Position numbers: made by a program
Part shown: one piece after another, positions 23,101 through 44,100 of the stretch
Layout of the letters: each line of letters opens with the position of its first letter
How positions within the stretch are numbered: the first letter of the stretch is position 1
Assembly (NCBI RefSeq): GCF_037042905.1
Contig: NC_087258.1
Coordinates: forward strand, 23,622,001-23,686,000
Length of the DNA: 64,000 nucleotides
Source: Lytechinus pictus
Lineage: Eukaryota
Direction: 5' to 3'

Positions 23101-26100
23101 GCCGGGATTCAGTCTTGTCGCACCCCCTCACTTTATCGCCAAAATCCATCTCTATATATACGCCAGCTGAGAGCCTGCGCGCGGAACCTCAAAAAGCCTC
23201 CATGCTTGGGGACTGCCTGAAACTCTAGAACTTGCAAAACATTAGAGCAAGGAGTTATTTGGTGAAAGCTTGGCGAAAATATCTCTCAGTAGTTGGTCAG
23301 AGATTGTGTCTATTATAGTTTGGAGCCAGCATCGACATGATAGAAGGCCTGAATATGGTTCGTCTTCCCTGGTTGGTCTTTATTCTGCAAGGTAAGGATA
23401 TGTCCATTTATACTTTCAAGTAAGACGTAATTAAGAACAGCATTTCTTTCCAGAACCTGACCTAGAACTTTGTGTGGTTTGTTTTGGCTTCATTTTCCGT
23501 ATCAAAATGAAAGCAATACTAATCTTCCAAAAATGTTTTCAACTTCTTATTCTTATTGTAAGTTTGAATGTAATTCAATCCCAATAAATATCATGGAACA
23601 TTGTAGTAATTCAGGAAAAAACAAATTGAAATTGCAGACCATTACTCTTGATTCGAGAAGTAAAACGTGACATTCATAAATGGTTTATTTCCTTTATGCA
23701 TCGAACCCTGGTTACAGCCACAGAAAACTATAACTTTCAAATTTCGAAAATTTCTTAAAGGTCAAGTCCACCCCAGAATAATGTTGATTTGAATAAATAG
23801 AGAAAAATCAACCAAGCATAACACTGAAAATTTCATCAAAACCGGATGTGTGTGTATTTGAGTTTTGTCAGACGTGTATCAATCAGATATGATTATTTAC
23901 GTCTGGGACCGACCTTTAACGTCACCATCCGAAAGACGTGACCAGGGCTCGAACCTCTGCATCAATTTGTAACTTCCCCGCATAGCTTGGATTACAGGCG
24001 CACGCCACAACGCCCAGTTGTAAAATAAGGAAGTTTTTACATTTGAAAGTTTCGCTTTTTTCACAACAGTTATATGCACAACCAAGTGATAATTAATAGA
24101 GTCAATGATGTCCCTCACTCACTATTCGTTTTGCTTTTTATTGTTTGAATTATACAATATATTTTTTACGATGTTACAATAAGTACCAACTTGACTGAAC
24201 CATAAAATGTTATAAATCTACATGTTCAGGGAGGCACAAATCTTTGTTTTCACATGACAATGAGGAGAAAATGAAAATATTTATTTTCGTAAAATACAAA
24301 AGAAATAGTGAGTGGGTGACGTCATCATTCAACTCATTTGCATACCAACCATGATGTGCATATAACTGTTTTGTGAAATTCAGTGAAACAAAACTAAATA
24401 TCATAACTTTCCTATTTTACATCCGATTTTGATGAAATTTTCAGTGTACAGTTATGCTCGTTGGATTTTTCTCTTTGTATTCGAATCAATTTTTTTTGCT
24501 GTGGTGGACTTGCCTTTATAAGCAATCATTCAGCTTATGATTAAGGAAAATTCCACGATATAGTCTGCTATATACAGGTTTGCTCGAACATCATTATGCA
24601 AACTTGGAAGCTGAAAACCCCCACCCCAGTATTAAAGGAACCACCGACGACGCCAAAGGCCGAAAAAAACTGTTTTCTACTGTTTTTGTGATGTGTTACC
24701 CCCCCCCCTCCCCCTCCCTCTCCCCGTGCGTGCTGGGACATGATCGTATCTTCATTGCTGGTATGCTTTACGATTGTTTCTCCTGTCTTTCTCAGGTTTC
24801 CTGCTAAATGTAAGTTCTTCAAGTGCAGAAGAAGGTAAGTGCAAACTGTCAATGTAACTTACTGTGTAAGCAGGGCTGGGGGATACAGGGTCTGGGGCAA
24901 AAGTGATTATCGCGTCCCATTCTTCATTACCTTTCATCAAATTAAACTATCAATTTAATTTCTTTTGTTATTCCCCTTTTTTTTACCTTACCATCTCTCC
25001 CTCTCCTCTCTCTTTCTCCACTTGTCACTTTTGACCCTGTTCATGCAGCCCCTGAAAGTTGGGGCTAGACCCAAGGACTTTATCCCCTCTGTATAAACTG
25101 CTGATTAGGCAGCTAAGTTGGCTAAAAGAAGTAGATCTCGATGCATTAATAGGGCCTACCTGGGAGGGATGTTTGTCAGTGGGTGTGCGTGTGAATGTAC
25201 GAGAAATGAATCTGGGTTAAGGGTGGGTGGTTGTGACAGGTCGAGGGTGGGTCCTATATGGGTGGGTGGGTCTGTAGTGGCTGAGTGTGAGTGGGTGGTG
25301 GGTGTGAGAGATGGGAGGGTGCGCTGTATATGGATGGCTTAAGGGTGGGTATGATAGGTCTAGGGTGGGTCTGTAGTGGCTGAGTGTGAGTGGGTGGTGG
25401 TGTGAGAGATGATCGAGGGTGCGCTGTTTATGGATGGGTTAAGGATGGGTGAGTATGATAGGTCTAGGGTTGGTCCAATATGGGTAGGTGGGTTTGTAGT
25501 GGCTCAGTGTGTGATAGATCGAGGGTGGGGCTAGGATGGGTGAGTGTGATAGATATGAGGGTAGGTTTAGGGTGGGTAGGTGTGAGAGATGGGAGGGTGT
25601 GCAGTGTATCGGTGGGTTAAGGGTGGGTGCATGATAGATCGAGGTTGGGTCCAATATGGGTGGTCTTGAGTGGGTGAATGTGATAGATATGAGGATAGGT
25701 TTAGGGTGGGTGTGAGAGATGGGAGGGTGAGCAGTATGTGGGTGGGTTGAGGGTGGGTATGATAGATCGAGGGTGGGTCCTATGTGGGTGGTCTTGAGTG
25801 GGTGAGTATGATAGATATGAGGGTGGGTTTAGTGTGGGTGGGTGTGAGAGATAGGAGGGTGTGCAGTGTATGGATAGGTTAAGGGTGGGTGAGTATGATA
25901 GGTCGAGGGAGTCTATGGTGGGTGAGTGTGATATATATGAGTGTGGGTGGGTGTGAGAGATGGGAGGGTGTGCTGTATATGGGTGGCTTTGTAGTGGCTC
26001 AGCGTGATAGATCGATGGTGGTGCTGGGCGAGTGAGTGTGATAGATATGAGGATGGGTGGGTGTGAGAGTATGTGCAGTATATGGTTGGGTTAAGGGTGG

Positions 26101-41100: not shown

Positions 41101-44100
41101 CAGGACGAGAAACTCGCGATACGCGAAATTCTGGGTTTGGCCCATACACAGTTTCTCGGGGACCTTTCATTTTTAAGACGGCTCGGACTCATCAGAATTG
41201 TAAGTCGATCGAAAAACCGAACATATACCATCAATATTATAATAATAATAATATTTATAACAACAACAACAACAACAACAACAATAATAATATTAATTGT
41301 ATGAAGCATTGTAAATTTTGGTACTTCATTATTATCATTCTTTGGCATTTCTGTTGAGCCATTTTTCAAAATTATCGGTAATATTCAAACGCGCATATTT
41401 TGTTTAATAAATTGTACGGTCCTAAATACCTTTACGATCGCCGTAGGATTAGTAGTAATAAATGGTATGGAATCGTTCGTACGGTGTTCGTAAAGGCTTT
41501 TGTGACCGTAGCATAATATATGCCTTCGAGAATTTATATTTTTTTTCTATTGCAGATGGCGCCCCCGTGAACATCTTTCTACTTTCAGCACTCGTCTGCA
41601 TCACCGCTCTCTTCCTGGCAACTGTTTTCATGGTGGCCTTCATCTACGCGCGAATGAAAAGGGGGACGGCATAATTAATTGATCACATGATAATATCATG
41701 TCACGTGAATGTGTTTCTGCTACCAAATCACGTGACACGGATCGATATTAATATTAGATTCAGACGGGTTCTAAATCAGTATTTACAATGTATCACAGCT
41801 TGAGGAGAACACCTGCGTACGCACGTCTTCATGTCAATGAACGCTGTCTCGGGCGACCTTCCTGAAATTTATATTTTTTGTGATCTTGGCTTTCAGTCAG
41901 CACCGGGGTCAGCACCACCTGTACTCTGGAATAAACTGCGTAATAATCTGAGGGCCAATGTACTTCCACCTTTGTCAAATCTTTAAAAAACATACTTGTT
42001 CTCATGTTAGATTTTTTTTGTTTAGGAAAGGTATATTACAATGTTACTTTTTCATTTAGTATTTATGTATGTTATTCCAGGTATACCTGTATTAGACTTA
42101 ATTACCTCTTTTGTAAAGCGCATAGAGATTCTGTAGAATATTATGCGCTTTATAACCATCTATTATTATTATTATTATTATTAATCATATCGACAATATA
42201 CCATACTTTGTTGCAGTGCATATTAAAGCACAAGAATAAAATGTAAGTCTAGATCATCGTTGTGATCTCATAAAAGGAAAAGGGAAACACATGAGTAAAG
42301 AGAAGGAACATAGGCACTATTAATTTTTTACATGATGGATGAATTGGTATATCTTTTTTTAAAAGGCTCTTAAAGTACTAATGTTTGACGAGGTAATAAC
42401 TCTGCTGCGATCGCGTGCATGGCCCGTATTCTGAACTCGGGTTTAAGGACGTTCCACAGTTAAAATGAAATCCATGTCATTTTCACCAAACTTCGCACAT
42501 AGATAATTTAGAACTTGAATATTCGAAATATGCAAAAATTAACATAGGTCCATGTGCTTGATTTTTTGCTATAGAACTTCAAAGTTCACCCAACTGGATG
42601 TTCTTACGAATTGCGCATTCAAAAGAATTTGGCATTTTTAAACTTCGCAAGATCACTACAATGAGTTTAAACCTCTATTACTCAGTCAAAATACATGAAA
42701 AAGTCATCAAATTTCGCACGTGAGTTAATAATGGTATCGTTAGAATGGAGAATCTATTTATAGTGCTATTTGTTTGCAATTTTAAGTCTAACAGCACTGT
42801 CGGTTCCTAAAAATGGCGTTAAACATAACAAAAACCCAATCTCAAAAATGTGAAATTTTAATAACAAACTACAAAAGTACAATAAATGCTGCACTTTATT
42901 CAAAATCCATGTCATTTTCACCAAAATTTTCAAAGTTGTAGAGAAAGGTATACCGAAGAGGTGCAAACATTGAAAAATAGGGGTTAATGTGCTTGTTTTC
43001 AAACTATCAGCATTTTAATTAGAGCAAATGTGCTTTTTAAAACACCAAAAATGTGCCAAATGCTTTGTATCTATGTGAAGAAAAAATCAAACCACTCTAC
43101 CATTTATTCCAACTCGGGGTCATATTCGTGATTTTTGGCAGCACTGAAGAGTAAAGTATTTTGAAATTGCAGAGATATTTTTTTTAATGGTCCATGGAAT
43201 AATAAAAGTTTTTTAGCTTCATAAAATAACGCATCGGATCTGTAGTTAGAGTGCAGATGATGAGAAAAATCAGTTCATATCCACATCTAATTAATCACCT
43301 GTTCATCCATTGTGACGTCAGCGCGCAGAGTGTAAAATATGCGCAGATCATAATGCGCACTAACATAACTGTGGAACGTCCTTAAATTAAACCGTGGTTT
43401 AACGTTGTGGTTTAACTATGGAGAGCCAATTGGGGCACAAAATCCCTAACGGTACCCATCAAATTTGTTAACTCACATGACACCCAAATTGTTCGTAATT
43501 GTTTGTGAATGATAAATTAAGCATTGTGAAGTATTTTTCTTCATTATGACAGCAAAGTAATGAACATGGGAAATATATAATAAAAACATAATTTGGAATA
43601 TTTGGCTCCCATAATTTTAGCACAGAGTTAGACCATGGTCTATTTATTGAACCTGACATCAGAATACCGTCCCATGTGTTTGAATTTTTAATAATAATAA
43701 TATAGGATATTTATATTGCGCACATATCCACCATGTCCACCTTGTTAGGTGCTCAAGGCGCTCCTATATTACCCGGCTAAGCTAGGCGTTCATAGCGCAC
43801 ACAGCTTTCTAAGGAATTACTTCCTACCGGTACCCATTTACCTCACCTGGGTTGAGTGCAGCACACTGTGGATCAGTTTCTTGCTGAAGGAAATTACGCC
43901 ATGGCTGGGATTCGAACCCACGACCCTCTGTTTCAAAGTCCGAAGACTAATCCACTGGGCCACAACGCTCCACGTTTATAGACGTGTATCAATCAGATAT
44001 GAGTATTTACATGTGGGACCGATCCCTATCGTCACCATTTGAAAGACTAAACCCAGGGTTCGAACCTCGAACCTTTGCATCAATTTGTAACAGGCCGGGT

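What the first reader, a model, noticed from the sequence alone, without database searches (positions are those of the whole stretch)
23337..41674. Unusual architecture: EGF-less YWTD propeller + MAM + ZP module membrane protein
Seen: an intact 786-aa spliced ORF of signal peptide, about six propeller blades (three clear YWTD-like, three degenerate), MAM, ZP-N/ZP-C with the expected cysteines, RETR cleavage site, EHP and TM. Established: ZP modules polymerise into extracellular filaments after furin cleavage, MAM mediates adhesion, and YWTD propellers normally pack against a following EGF domain, which is absent here. The domain borders fall on phase-1 introns, consistent with exon shuffling. 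Inference: a lineage-specific matrix or egg-coat filament protein that displays a ligand-binding propeller.
Basis: partly seen in the sequence, partly recalled or inferred. Interest (0 to 1): 0.65.

Follow-up and report, generated by a model that had tools for sequence, protein, structure and literature searches.

The report
Sea urchin propeller-MAM-ZP filament protein
This is an intact sea urchin gene for a membrane-anchored protein that joins a six-bladed YWTD propeller and a MAM adhesion domain to a uromodulin-like ZP filament-forming module, an undescribed but modest variation on a very common kind of mosaic extracellular protein.

Summary
Window 23337-41674 (+) carries a 14-exon, all GT-AG gene of 2361 coding bases, 786 codons plus stop. 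It is Lytechinus pictus LOC129276912, which RefSeq calls 'uncharacterized protein'. Domains were checked exon by exon and through database orthologues. They are a signal peptide, a six-bladed YWTD propeller, MAM, ZP-N, a six-cysteine ZP-C, an R-x-x-R cluster, a hydrophobic patch and a TM helix. No EGF exists: 0 of 134 intronic open frames match an EGF family, and 6 of 6 relatives retaining propeller sequence lack one. The architecture recurs in four divergent unnamed proteins, so it is a small family. MAM+ZP occurs elsewhere (4 of 38 ZP hits), but LY+ZP only in this family (0 of 38). EGF-less YWTD propellers have a precedent in ROS1/Sevenless. The most likely mechanism, inferred, is a uromodulin-type precursor cleaved before the TM that polymerises into filaments displaying propeller-MAM arms. 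Tissue, egg-coat role and taxonomic range stay untested. The arms diverge faster than the ZP scaffold. It is a new variant of a known kind, of moderate-low interest.

The parts
23337..23391 (+). Exon 1: start codon and first part of the signal peptide (phase out 1)
   Evidence: 100% match to residues 1-19 of P0001; GT donor. The signal-peptide call rests on hydrophobicity only and position; no predictor was run.
24796..24834 (+). Exon 2: end of the signal peptide and likely cleavage region (phase 1 to 1)
   Evidence: AG/GT sites and an open frame; reproduces residues 20-32 of P0001.
26373..26588 (+). Exon 3: strands 2-4 of propeller blade 6 plus blade 1 (IFWTD)
   Evidence: PDB phmmer with this exon alone: LRP4 3.1e-21, LRP2, LRP6, nidogen 2e-8; 29 sequences at E<=0.01. 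Pfam Ldl_recept_b 19.7 bits, just below the cutoff of 21.
28711..28888 (+). Exon 4: blade 2 (IFWTH) and the start of blade 3
   Evidence: PDB phmmer: LRP2/LRP6 at about 9e-6, 15 sequences at E<=0.01; 100% to P0001 residues 104-163.
33519..33634 (+). Exon 5: blade 3 (LYWTQ) and the start of blade 4; entered by the only phase-2 intron of the propeller
   Evidence: strand assignment by analogy with the P0002 model.
33916..34176 (+). Exon 6: degenerate blades 4 and 5 (LFFCE, LYMAS) and strand 1 of blade 6; end of the propeller (phase out 1)
   Evidence: No PDB hit for this exon alone. Supported by the family profile aligning across whole propellers, by 24 modelled strands, and by Foldseek to nidogen 1npe with TM-target 0.82 and rmsd 2.7 over 270 columns.
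35284..35442 (+). Exon 7: N-terminal third of MAM, with 2 Cys and 2 N-x-S/T sites
   Evidence: MAM profile positions 1-157 are covered in P0001 residues 295-462 and P0002 residues 294-465. Cys294 and Cys301 are invariant in A1. Counts.
36295..36663 (+). Exon 8: rest of MAM, with 2 Cys and 3 N-x-S/T sites (phase 1 to 1)
   Evidence: Pfam MAM E 1.2e-14, 54.8 bits, on the open frame containing this exon. 100% to P0001. No PDB hit by single-sequence search; the profile hits MAM of SR-C-like protein, MDGA1, neuropilin and meprin.
37526..37701 (+). Exon 9: ZP-N, first three conserved Cys
   Evidence: Pfam ZP-N 25.5 bits against a cutoff of 24.7. Cys473, 502 and 521 are invariant in A1. PDB phmmer gave only chance-level hits, E 0.48-0.87.
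38357..38608 (+). Exon 10: end of ZP-N (fourth Cys) and the interdomain linker. In RefSeq model P0001 the following intron is read through to a stop.
   Evidence: Cys556 is invariant. 95% identical to L. variegatus.
39379..39521 (+). Exon 11: start of ZP-C (hydrophobic IYMATEM strand, first ZP-C Cys)
   Evidence: Pfam ZP-C 19.6 bits, below the cutoff for this piece alone. ZP-C 9.3e-21 in P0002. 96% to P0002.
40379..40478 (+). Exon 12: middle of ZP-C (1 Cys)
   Evidence: tblastn to P0002 residues 658-691, 91%; 94% over the exact exon.
41022..41199 (+). Exon 13: end of ZP-C (4 Cys), basic cluster and hydrophobic patch
   Evidence: No PDB hit for the exon alone.
41097..41126 (+). Candidate consensus cleavage site: overlapping RPGR / RETR / RDTR
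   Evidence: Motifs. An R-x-x-R motif at the same alignment position occurs in 5 of 5 family members that reach this region (P0002, P0003, P0004, P0008, P0021). Cleavage itself is inferred.
41145..41174 (+). Candidate external hydrophobic patch (YTVSRGPFIF) between the cleavage site and the TM
   Evidence: Position and conservation (GP.TVS.GP) in A1. Inferred by analogy with other ZP precursors. The model is of low confidence here.
41556..41674 (+). Exon 14: TM helix (about 41567-41650), 7-residue cytoplasmic tail and stop codon
   Evidence: Highest 15-residue hydropathy of the gene, 2.83. The orthologue is modelled as a helix at 753-785. 94% to P0002.

Best explanation
The gene (L. pictus LOC129276912) encodes a type-I membrane glycoprotein precursor. 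Its order is signal peptide, closed six-bladed YWTD (LDLR class B) propeller, MAM joined directly with no EGF, ZP-N, linker, ten-cysteine uromodulin/GP2-like ZP module, basic R-x-x-R cluster, hydrophobic patch, TM helix and a short tail. That architecture is shown.

The mechanism is inferred from what is established for uromodulin, GP2 and egg-coat ZP proteins. A protease cuts at the basic cluster at the cell surface. This frees the ectodomain from the hydrophobic patch and TM and unlocks head-to-tail polymerisation of ZP-N and ZP-C into a filament. The propeller-MAM pair then projects from the filament as a lateral arm. The propeller's top face is the likely protein-binding site, and MAM may act as a lateral adhesion or oligomerisation element that also takes the place the EGF holds beside LDLR-type propellers.

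The most likely setting is an apical or luminal extracellular matrix of an epithelium. An egg coat is possible but less favoured. The tissue is unknown.
For: - Intact 14-exon, 786-codon model with canonical splice sites.
- 100% identity of exons to RefSeq protein P0001, and a colinear 790-aa orthologue P0002 in L. variegatus.
- Pfam on P0002: Ldl_recept_b 22.8 bits (cutoff 21), MAM 3.7e-21, ZP-N 3.1e-9, ZP-C 9.3e-21.
- Family profile against the PDB: LRP2/4/6, nidogen 5.6e-32, LDLR 1e-25, uromodulin 3.2e-27, GP2 7e-17, and MAM of MDGA1, neuropilin and meprin.
- AF2 model of P0002: 24 strands in residues 33-283 at block pLDDT about 65-90. Foldseek gives nidogen TM-target 0.82 and LDLR 1ijq 0.69.
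- Cysteine counts of 4 (MAM), 4 (ZP-N) and 6 (ZP-C), the R-x-x-R cluster, and the strong TM hydropathy.
- R-x-x-R conserved in 5 of 5 relatives covering the site.
- No hidden EGF: 0 regex hits on the + strand and 0 of 134 intronic open frames with an EGF family.
- The same LY+MAM+ZP order in four divergent proteins, P0008, P0010, P0021 and P0022, at 26-40% identity.
- The ZP exons are better conserved than the arm exons: 95% against 88% to L. variegatus, and 79% against 52-63% to the Strongylocentrotus-type protein P0004. This fits a constrained polymerising scaffold carrying a more freely evolving binding arm.
Against: - No transcript, protein or localisation evidence was reachable, so polymerisation, cleavage and ligand binding are all inferred.
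- The L. pictus RefSeq model P0001 (643 aa) reads through the intron after exon 10 and lacks ZP-C and TM.
- The S. purpuratus RefSeq model P0003 (570 aa) starts inside blade 5 and lacks most of the propeller.
- The basic site is a minimal R-x-x-R, not a full R-x-K/R-R.
- The AF2 model is poor for ZP-C (pLDDT below 50 over 620-754), only 50-70 for most of MAM (its N-terminal third, residues 285-359, is below 50) and ZP-N, and pTM is 0.40. Domain packing, including any MAM-propeller contact, is therefore untested.
- Exons 6, 8, 9 and 13 find nothing in the PDB when searched alone.
- Some TM-anchored ZP proteins do not polymerise (endoglin and betaglycan, recalled).
Confidence: 0.55

Rival explanations
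1. It is a non-polymerising cell-surface receptor or co-receptor. The ZP module serves as a stalk or ligand-binding platform, as in endoglin or betaglycan. The protein stays in the membrane, with the propeller capturing a soluble or matrix ligand.
For: TM helix and short tail. YWTD propellers in LRP4/5/6, LDLR and ROS1 are receptor ligand-binding modules; these are the named hits, and their function is recalled. The basic site is only a minimal R-x-x-R.
Against: The precursor hallmarks of polymerising ZP proteins are all present and conserved: ten Cys, a basic cluster between the last ZP-C Cys and the TM, and a hydrophobic patch after it. The best solved ZP relatives are the filament formers uromodulin and GP2, and neither endoglin nor betaglycan is among the 60 best PDB hits shown. 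The 7-residue tail has no recognisable signalling motif.
Confidence: 0.2
2. It is specifically an egg-coat (vitelline layer or fertilisation envelope) component. Its fast-evolving propeller-MAM arm takes part in gamete recognition.
For: ZP modules are the building block of egg coats in many animals (passages of PMC9290575). The arm exons diverge faster than the ZP exons. The identity of the egg receptor for sperm bindin is still described as uncertain (passage of PMC13672419).
Against: No expression data. The nearest solved ZP modules are uromodulin and GP2, with only ZP2's ZP-C at 4.2e-14. The nearest ZP neighbours have CUB, SRCR, lectin or MAM partners typical of epithelial secretory ZP proteins. 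The sea urchin gamete-recognition literature I could read names EBR1, REJ and bindin and no ZP protein. Faster divergence of the arm could equally be relaxed constraint, and no dN/dS could be computed.
Confidence: 0.12
3. The main product in L. pictus is the short secreted form annotated in RefSeq (P0001): signal peptide, propeller, MAM, ZP-N and linker, ending in retained intron 10, with no ZP-C, cleavage site or TM.
For: P0001 ends with 35 residues that are the read-through of the intron after exon 10, at 38609-38716.
Against: Exons 11-14 are open, keep AG/GT sites and are 92-96% identical to L. variegatus, as high as the ZP-N exons. The full form is annotated in L. variegatus and S. purpuratus and occurs in P0008 and P0021. 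An automatic model built on unspliced reads is a common artefact (general knowledge).
Confidence: 0.08
4. The model is a fusion artefact of two neighbouring genes, one a propeller gene and the other a MAM-ZP gene.
For: The S. purpuratus RefSeq model P0003 lacks most of the propeller. MAM+ZP proteins without a propeller exist: P0057, P0058, P0097 and P0146.
Against: Six gene models from at least two named species plus unnamed sources join propeller to MAM-ZP (P0001, P0002, P0004, P0008, P0010, P0021/P0022). The propeller-to-MAM intron is only 1107 nt and both sides are phase 1. The MAM exon has no signal peptide or start of its own. P0003 begins at an internal Met of the sequence seen in P0004.
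Confidence: 0.04

Closest known systems
Uromodulin (UMOD) and GP2, filament-forming ZP proteins of epithelial secretions
   Same: ZP-N plus a ZP-C with six cysteines, ten in the module. Best solved ZP relatives are uromodulin at 3.2e-27 over profile positions 449-694 and GP2 at 7e-17. Membrane-tethered precursor with a basic site and hydrophobic patch before the anchor. N-terminal non-ZP domains would form lateral arms (recalled from the uromodulin filament structures).
   Different: The arms are a YWTD propeller plus MAM rather than EGF and D8C. The anchor is a TM helix rather than GPI (the GPI anchor of UMOD/GP2 is recalled). No evidence here for polymerisation or for the tissue.
YWTD propeller-EGF pairs of the LDL-receptor family (LDLR, VLDLR, LRP2/4/6) and nidogen G3
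   Same: Homologous six-bladed propeller. Profile hits from 1e-25 down to 5e-181; the lowest values sum several propellers in LRP2. Exon 3 alone gives LRP4 at 3.1e-21. Foldseek gives nidogen TM-target 0.82 and LDLR 0.69.
   Different: No EGF before or after the propeller, and no LDLa repeats. Only three of six strand-2 motifs are well kept. It is followed within about 10 residues by MAM.
ROS1 / Sevenless ectodomain
   Same: YWTD propellers not paired with EGF. The ectodomain is described as nine FNIII domains and three YWTD propellers (passages of PMC11743138). Chicken ROS1 is a Foldseek hit at E 5.5e-14.
   Different: ROS1 is a receptor tyrosine kinase with FNIII neighbours. It has no MAM, no ZP module and no filament formation.
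Other MAM-plus-ZP mosaic proteins (unnamed database proteins P0057, P0058, P0097, P0146) and CUB/SRCR-ZP proteins of the DMBT1/CUZD1 type
   Same: MAM N-terminal to a ZP module of the same subtype in 4 of the 38 non-family ZP hits scanned. CUB, SRCR, C-lectin, VWA, Sushi and EGF partners occur in the rest.
   Different: None of the 38 has an Ldl_recept_b repeat. In three of the four, MAM is separated from ZP by CUB or SRCR domains. The names DMBT1 and CUZD1 are recalled and were not returned by a tool.

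Membership tests
ZP-module proteins (ZP-N + ZP-C) | ZP-N domain with four conserved cysteines | tested here: met
   Pfam ZP-N is above the cutoff on exon 9 alone (25.5 against 24.7) and on P0001/P0002 (38.4 and 37.5 bits). Exon 9 has 3 Cys and exon 10 has 1. All four are invariant in 8 of 8 aligned sequences.
ZP-module proteins (ZP-N + ZP-C) | ZP-C domain with conserved cysteines | tested here: met
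   ZP-C at 9.3e-21 on P0002 and 1.7e-24 on P0003. The window's exon 11 alone gives 19.6 bits, below the cutoff of 24.6. There are six Cys in exons 11-13. The profile aligns to uromodulin through ZP-C.
ZP-module proteins (polymerising precursors) | Basic cleavage site followed by an external hydrophobic patch and a membrane anchor | tested here: met
   Sequence features only: an RPGR/RETR/RDTR cluster, a conserved hydrophobic stretch, and TM hydropathy of 2.83. R-x-x-R is conserved in 5 of 5 relatives. The site is minimal rather than full furin-type.
ZP-module proteins (polymerising precursors) | Cleavage-dependent assembly into filaments | not testable with these tools
   No biochemical or imaging data. 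The model confidence for ZP-C is below 50.
YWTD / LDLR class B six-bladed beta-propeller | Sequence homology to class B repeats | tested here: met
   Ldl_recept_b at 22.8 bits (P0002) and 21.5 bits (P0001) against a cutoff of 21. Exon 3 alone gives 19.7 bits, but LRP4 at 3.1e-21 in the PDB. Exon 4 gives 9e-6. The family profile gives 1e-25 or better to LDLR, nidogen and LRPs.
YWTD / LDLR class B six-bladed beta-propeller | Six four-stranded blades closing into a ring | tested here: met
   On the orthologue P0002 only: 24 strands in residues 33-283, block pLDDT about 65-90. 270-column superpositions on nidogen (rmsd 2.7) and LDLR (rmsd 3.9). No coordinates could be inspected for ring closure.
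LDL-receptor gene family / nidogen-type YWTD-EGF pair | EGF module packed directly after (and usually before) the propeller | tested here: not met
   No EGF family hit in P0001-P0004 at E<=1 or in P0008, P0010, P0021 and P0022 at E<=0.01. 0 EGF-pattern matches on the + strand. 0 of 134 intronic open frames hit an EGF family. Only about 10 residues separate the propeller from MAM.
LDL-receptor gene family | LDLa (class A) ligand-binding repeats | tested here: not met
   No Ldl_recept_a hit in any of the eight family proteins.
MAM domain | About 160-residue MAM fold with four conserved cysteines | tested here: met
   Pfam MAM at 1.2e-14 on exon 8 alone, and 1e-19 to 9.5e-29 on P0001-P0004 covering profile positions 1-157. 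Exons 7 and 8 have 2 Cys each. The profile hits solved MAM domains.

The most novel reading that the evidence does not exclude
The propeller-MAM arm is a fast-evolving recognition surface carried on a conserved uromodulin-like filament. Two roles would fit. One is a species-selective component of the echinoid egg surface taking part in sperm-egg recognition, where the egg receptor for bindin is still described as unresolved (PMC13672419 passage). The other is a mucosal filament that traps microbes or particles by way of the propeller. Either would make it the first ZP filament known to display a YWTD propeller as its binding head. It would also be a natural case of a YWTD propeller stabilised by a MAM domain instead of an EGF.
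Probability: 0.1. Interest if true: 0.7.

Novelty: new variant of a known kind. Interest (0 to 1): 0.33.

Why it matters
ZP proteins are the universal filament builders of egg coats and apical matrices, and what they do is set largely by the domains they display. A YWTD propeller has not, in the literature I could search, been reported on a ZP stalk: 0 papers for YWTD + MAM + zona pellucida, 0 for YWTD + ZP domain, and 0 for the two LOC identifiers.

If the protein does polymerise, it would present many copies of a proven protein-binding fold along a filament. It would also give structural biologists a natural YWTD propeller that folds without its usual EGF partner.

For sea urchin biology it adds a candidate component of a surface matrix. 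ZP proteins are absent from the echinoderm extracellular-matrix review I checked: 0 mentions of 'zona pellucida' or 'ZP domain' in PMC10381214.

Against this, all three modules are textbook domains and ZP proteins are notoriously mosaic. The gene is already in RefSeq as an uncharacterised protein, and nothing here bears on function directly.

Tried and rejected
- My first guess at a signal-peptide exon (open frame 23435-23584) and a blade exon (29003-29152) were wrong. Both are intronic and have no Pfam support. The real first exon starts at 23337.
- A second copy or paralogue in the window: weak tblastn matches at 50251-50391, 42847-43179 and 10950-11030 (E 0.05-1) were not reproduced by the divergent relatives, which hit only the gene's own exons. 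Rejected.
- Hidden EGF exons: rejected. The only hit among the 134 intronic frames was a sub-threshold match (17.9 bits against a cutoff of 25) inside a short-period repeat. I take it as chance.
The alignment search did not return them. The Atlas gave no usable hit. Their taxa stay unknown.
- The 1993 'sea urchin sperm protein related to uromodulin' (PMC2119707, abstract read) resembles uromodulin over EGF repeats, not a ZP module. It is not a relative of this gene.
- The coral skeletal-matrix paper (PMC4890752, passages) mentions MAM-LDLa proteins and ZP proteins as separate molecules, not this architecture.
- Genome contigs holds only bacteria and archaea, so I did not use it.
- The second structure job went unused, because no coordinates or pair-error maps are returned and domain packing could not have been read.

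Full report
**What the window is.** It is 64 kb of AT-rich (about 37% G+C) eukaryotic DNA with three N runs, all outside the finding, which I left untouched. Translating the largest exon of the finding returns, at 100% identity, the RefSeq protein 'uncharacterized protein LOC129276912 [Lytechinus pictus]' (P0001, 643 aa). Three relatives follow (4 proteins with E<=1e-3 among 229 candidates):
- L. variegatus LOC121428000 (P0002, 790 aa, 89%)
- S. purpuratus 'ZP domain-containing protein-like' (P0003, 570 aa, 68%)
- an unnamed 870-aa protein (P0004)

The window is therefore sea urchin DNA, and nothing in it was taken for human.

**How the spliced model was handled.** Exons were located, translated and searched one at a time. 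Whole-protein analyses used database proteins that the search tool returned, chiefly the L. variegatus orthologue P0002.

**The gene model.** tblastn of P0001 and P0002 against the window and inspection of the flanks give 14 exons. In the table below, 'phase out' is the phase of the intron that follows each exon.

| Exon | Coordinates | Phase out |
|---|---|---|
| 1 | 23337-23391 | 1 |
| 2 | 24796-24834 | 1 |
| 3 | 26373-26588 | 1 |
| 4 | 28711-28888 | 2 |
| 5 | 33519-33634 | 1 |
| 6 | 33916-34176 | 1 |
| 7 | 35284-35442 | 1 |
| 8 | 36295-36663 | 1 |
| 9 | 37526-37701 | 0 |
| 10 | 38357-38608 | 0 |
| 11 | 39379-39521 | 2 |
| 12 | 40379-40478 | 0 |
| 13 | 41022-41199 | 1 |
| 14 | 41556-41674 | - |

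All 13 introns are GT-AG, and no exon has a stop in its own frame. The lengths sum to 2361 nt, 786 codons plus the stop.

The four borders signal|propeller, propeller|MAM, MAM|ZP-N and patch|TM are all phase 1, and the ZP-N/linker to ZP-C border is phase 0. With 8 of 13 introns in phase 1, four of four by chance has p about 0.10. The pattern is consistent with 1-1 module shuffling but proves nothing alone.

**The propeller.**
- Exon 3 alone hits LRP4 (3.1e-21), LRP2, LRP6 and nidogen in the PDB: 29 sequences at E<=0.01.
- Exon 4 hits LRP2/LRP6 at about 9e-6: 15 sequences.
- Exon 6, which holds the degenerate blades, hits nothing alone.
- A profile of eight family members (A1) aligns over whole propellers of LDLR (1ijq, 1e-25, profile positions 38-277), VLDLR, LRP6 (positions 47-295) and nidogen (5.6e-32).
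- The AF2 model of P0002 built on A1 has 24 strands between residues 33 and 283, at block pLDDT of about 65-90.
- Foldseek superposes about 270 columns on nidogen (TM-target 0.82, rmsd 2.7), LDLR (0.69), LRP4 and LRP6.

Reading the strand-2 positions in the exon translations gives IFWTD, IFWTH and LYWTQ, then LFFCE, LYMAS and the N-terminal IAIVS. By the order of strands, blade 6 is made of the last C-terminal strand and the first three N-terminal strands.

**No EGF.**
- None of P0001-P0004 (E<=1) or P0008, P0010, P0021 and P0022 (E<=0.01) has any EGF-family or LDLa hit.
- An EGF six-cysteine pattern has no match in any + strand frame of 22000-43000. The two matches found are on the minus strand, one in a low-complexity translation and one upstream of the gene.
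- 0 of 134 + strand intronic open frames of 30 aa or more hit an EGF family. The single hit was an unrelated sub-threshold match that I take as chance.
- The propeller exons contain only three cysteines, and MAM starts about ten residues after the last blade strand.

**MAM and the ZP module.**
- Exon 8 alone gives Pfam MAM at 1.2e-14. With exon 7, MAM profile positions 1-157 are covered in P0001/P0002. Each of the two exons has two cysteines.
- Exon 9 gives ZP-N above the cutoff. Exon 11 gives ZP-C below the cutoff, and P0002 gives ZP-C at 9.3e-21.
- The module has 4 + 6 cysteines.
- Its best solved relatives are uromodulin (3.2e-27), GP2 (7e-17) and, for ZP-C only, ZP2 (4.2e-14).
- Searched alone, exons 8, 9 and 13 find nothing significant in the PDB.
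- Exon 13 ends ZP-C and then carries overlapping RPGR/RETR/RDTR and a conserved hydrophobic stretch. Exon 14 is the TM helix and a seven-residue tail.
- An R-x-x-R motif sits at the same alignment position in 5 of 5 relatives that reach it.

**Is the architecture a one-off?** A full HMMER pass of P0002 over 1.84 billion representatives gave 3325 hits at E<=1e-3, 701 at 1e-10 and 44 at 1e-30, with 150 listed.
- Four divergent proteins are colinear with it: P0008 (726 aa, 40%), P0010 (704 aa, 37%), P0022 (639 aa, 30%) and P0021 (783 aa). Pfam shows MAM and ZP in all four. Ldl_recept_b scores in P0008, P0021 and P0022, and propeller-type matches (SGL, DUF5050) in P0010.
- The rest are MAM-repeat giants, LRP-like propeller proteins and other ZP proteins.
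- I scanned all 38 listed hits whose best stretch lay in the ZP part of the query, 2 and 36. Four carry MAM as well as ZP, and none carries an Ldl_recept_b repeat. Their partners are CUB, SRCR, C-lectin, VWA, Sushi, EGF and D8C.
- Of the roughly 100 remaining MAM-type and propeller-type hits I scanned only seven: P0030, P0035, P0055 and P0127, and P0044, P0063 and P0069. A propeller-plus-ZP protein among the unscanned long ones is therefore not excluded.
- The relatives hit only the gene's own exons in the window, so there is no tandem copy here.

**Conservation by domain.** The table gives identity exon by exon.

| Exons | 3 | 4 | 5 | 6 | 7 | 8 | 9 | 10 | 11 | 12 | 13 | 14 |
|---|---|---|---|---|---|---|---|---|---|---|---|---|
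| % identity to L. variegatus | 94 | 83 | 79 | 91 | 85 | 89 | 97 | 95 | 96 | 94 | 92 | 94 |

Pooled values are below.

| Comparison | Propeller | MAM | ZP |
|---|---|---|---|
| to L. variegatus (P0002) | 222/252 = 88% | 154/175 = 88% | 266/281 = 95% |
| to P0004 | 96/184 = 52% (exons 4-6) | 111/177 = 63% | 194/245 = 79% (exons 9-11 and 13) |

The arm changes about twice as fast as the scaffold. Without orthologous DNA I could not separate positive selection from relaxed constraint.

**Mechanism.** What is shown is the architecture. What I infer comes from established knowledge of uromodulin, GP2 and egg-coat ZP proteins, which I recalled and did not test here. The precursor would be cut at the basic cluster. 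Loss of the hydrophobic patch and anchor would license ZP-N/ZP-C polymerisation, and the propeller-MAM pair would project from the filament. The propeller is the likely binding head, since the homologues named (LRP4/6, LDLR, nidogen, ROS1) use it that way (recalled).

The uromodulin/GP2-like ZP subtype, and ZP neighbours with CUB, SRCR, lectin or MAM partners, lean toward an epithelial apical or luminal matrix rather than an egg coat. That is a weak argument.

Weaknesses of this reading:
- P0001 lacks ZP-C and TM through intron read-through.
- P0003 lacks most of the propeller.
- The basic site is minimal.
- The model is poor beyond the propeller: mean pLDDT 58.6, pTM 0.40, and ZP-C below 50.

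**Comparison with what is known.**
- It is a member of the ZP-module superfamily, and its propeller and MAM are members of their domain families.
- It is not a member of the LDL-receptor family, because it has no LDLa and no EGF.
- EGF-less YWTD propellers are not unprecedented. ROS1/Sevenless is described as nine FNIII domains plus three YWTD propellers (passages of PMC11743138). Chicken ROS1 appears among the Foldseek hits. A bacterial LY-repeat protein (P0127) also has no EGF.
- MAM+ZP exists elsewhere.
- What I did not find anywhere else is a YWTD propeller on a ZP protein.

**Literature.** I used ten full-text searches.
- 0 papers for the two LOC ids.
- 0 papers for YWTD + MAM + zona pellucida.
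- 0 papers for YWTD + ZP domain.
- 2 papers for MAM domain + ZP domain + sea urchin, neither about this architecture.
- The echinoderm ECM review PMC10381214 has 0 occurrences of 'zona pellucida' or 'ZP domain'.
- Passages of PMC11673550, PMC9290575 and PMC13672419, and the abstract of PMC2119707, describe no such protein.

**What stayed unchecked.** Supplementary tables were closed, and they are where single-cell markers or proteome lists might name the S. purpuratus gene. Expression, taxonomic range and any prior listing in supplements therefore stay unchecked.

**Verdict.** This is a new variant (propeller-MAM arm, EGF-less) of a very well known kind (mosaic ZP filament precursors). The gene is already annotated but uncharacterised. 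Interest is moderate-low unless expression or selection data place it at a recognition interface.

Noticed in passing
window 38609-38716 (intron after exon 10): The L. pictus RefSeq protein P0001 ends with a read-through of this intron to a stop, so it lacks ZP-C, the cleavage site and the TM. Exons 11-14 are nevertheless intact and 92-96% identical to L. variegatus. This is probably an annotation artefact or a minor retained-intron isoform.
   Followed up: partly
P0003 and P0004 (Strongylocentrotus-type orthologues; not in the window): The S. purpuratus RefSeq model starts at an internal Met in blade 5 and lacks most of the propeller. The unnamed 870-aa model P0004 lacks blade 1 and contains an internal repeat of the ZP-N/linker stretch plus unrelated insert sequence. 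This looks like a gene-model or assembly problem.
   Followed up: partly
window 25264-26167 (intron 2): A G-rich minisatellite array of about 0.9 kb with periods of roughly 36-128 bp. It explains the GC-skew peak (0.339) of the 24001-26000 bin and the long repeat-like open frames on the minus strand.
   Followed up: partly
window 29603-29722 (intron 4): A short-period (11/22/44 bp) CA-rich tandem repeat. Translations across it produce Cys/His-rich pseudo-peptides and one sub-threshold chance Pfam match.
   Followed up: partly
window 12592-12942 and 15560-15790 (+): Two exons of a triosephosphate isomerase gene lie upstream on the same strand: Pfam TIM 2.3e-25 (profile positions 33-106) and 1.3e-20 (profile positions 153-207). 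The remaining exons were not mapped.
   Followed up: partly
window 9692-11217 (+): A fragment of a reverse-transcriptase-bearing retroelement: RVT_1 at 7.9e-14 covering only profile positions 100-193, and zf-RVT at 1.9e-5. The two matches lie in different reading frames, so there is at least one frame break, and the RT match is partial. It coincides with the G+C rise and negative GC skew of 10001-12000. It was not analysed further.
   Followed up: no
window 46357-47223 (+): A 289-codon open frame rich in charged residues, including an acidic run, with no Pfam family at E<=1e-3. It could be an exon of the downstream neighbour or a repeat ORF.
   Followed up: no
window 5293-5478, 20488-20749, 53929-54131: Three runs of N (186, 262 and 203 bases), all outside the gene. 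They were left as they are.
   Followed up: no
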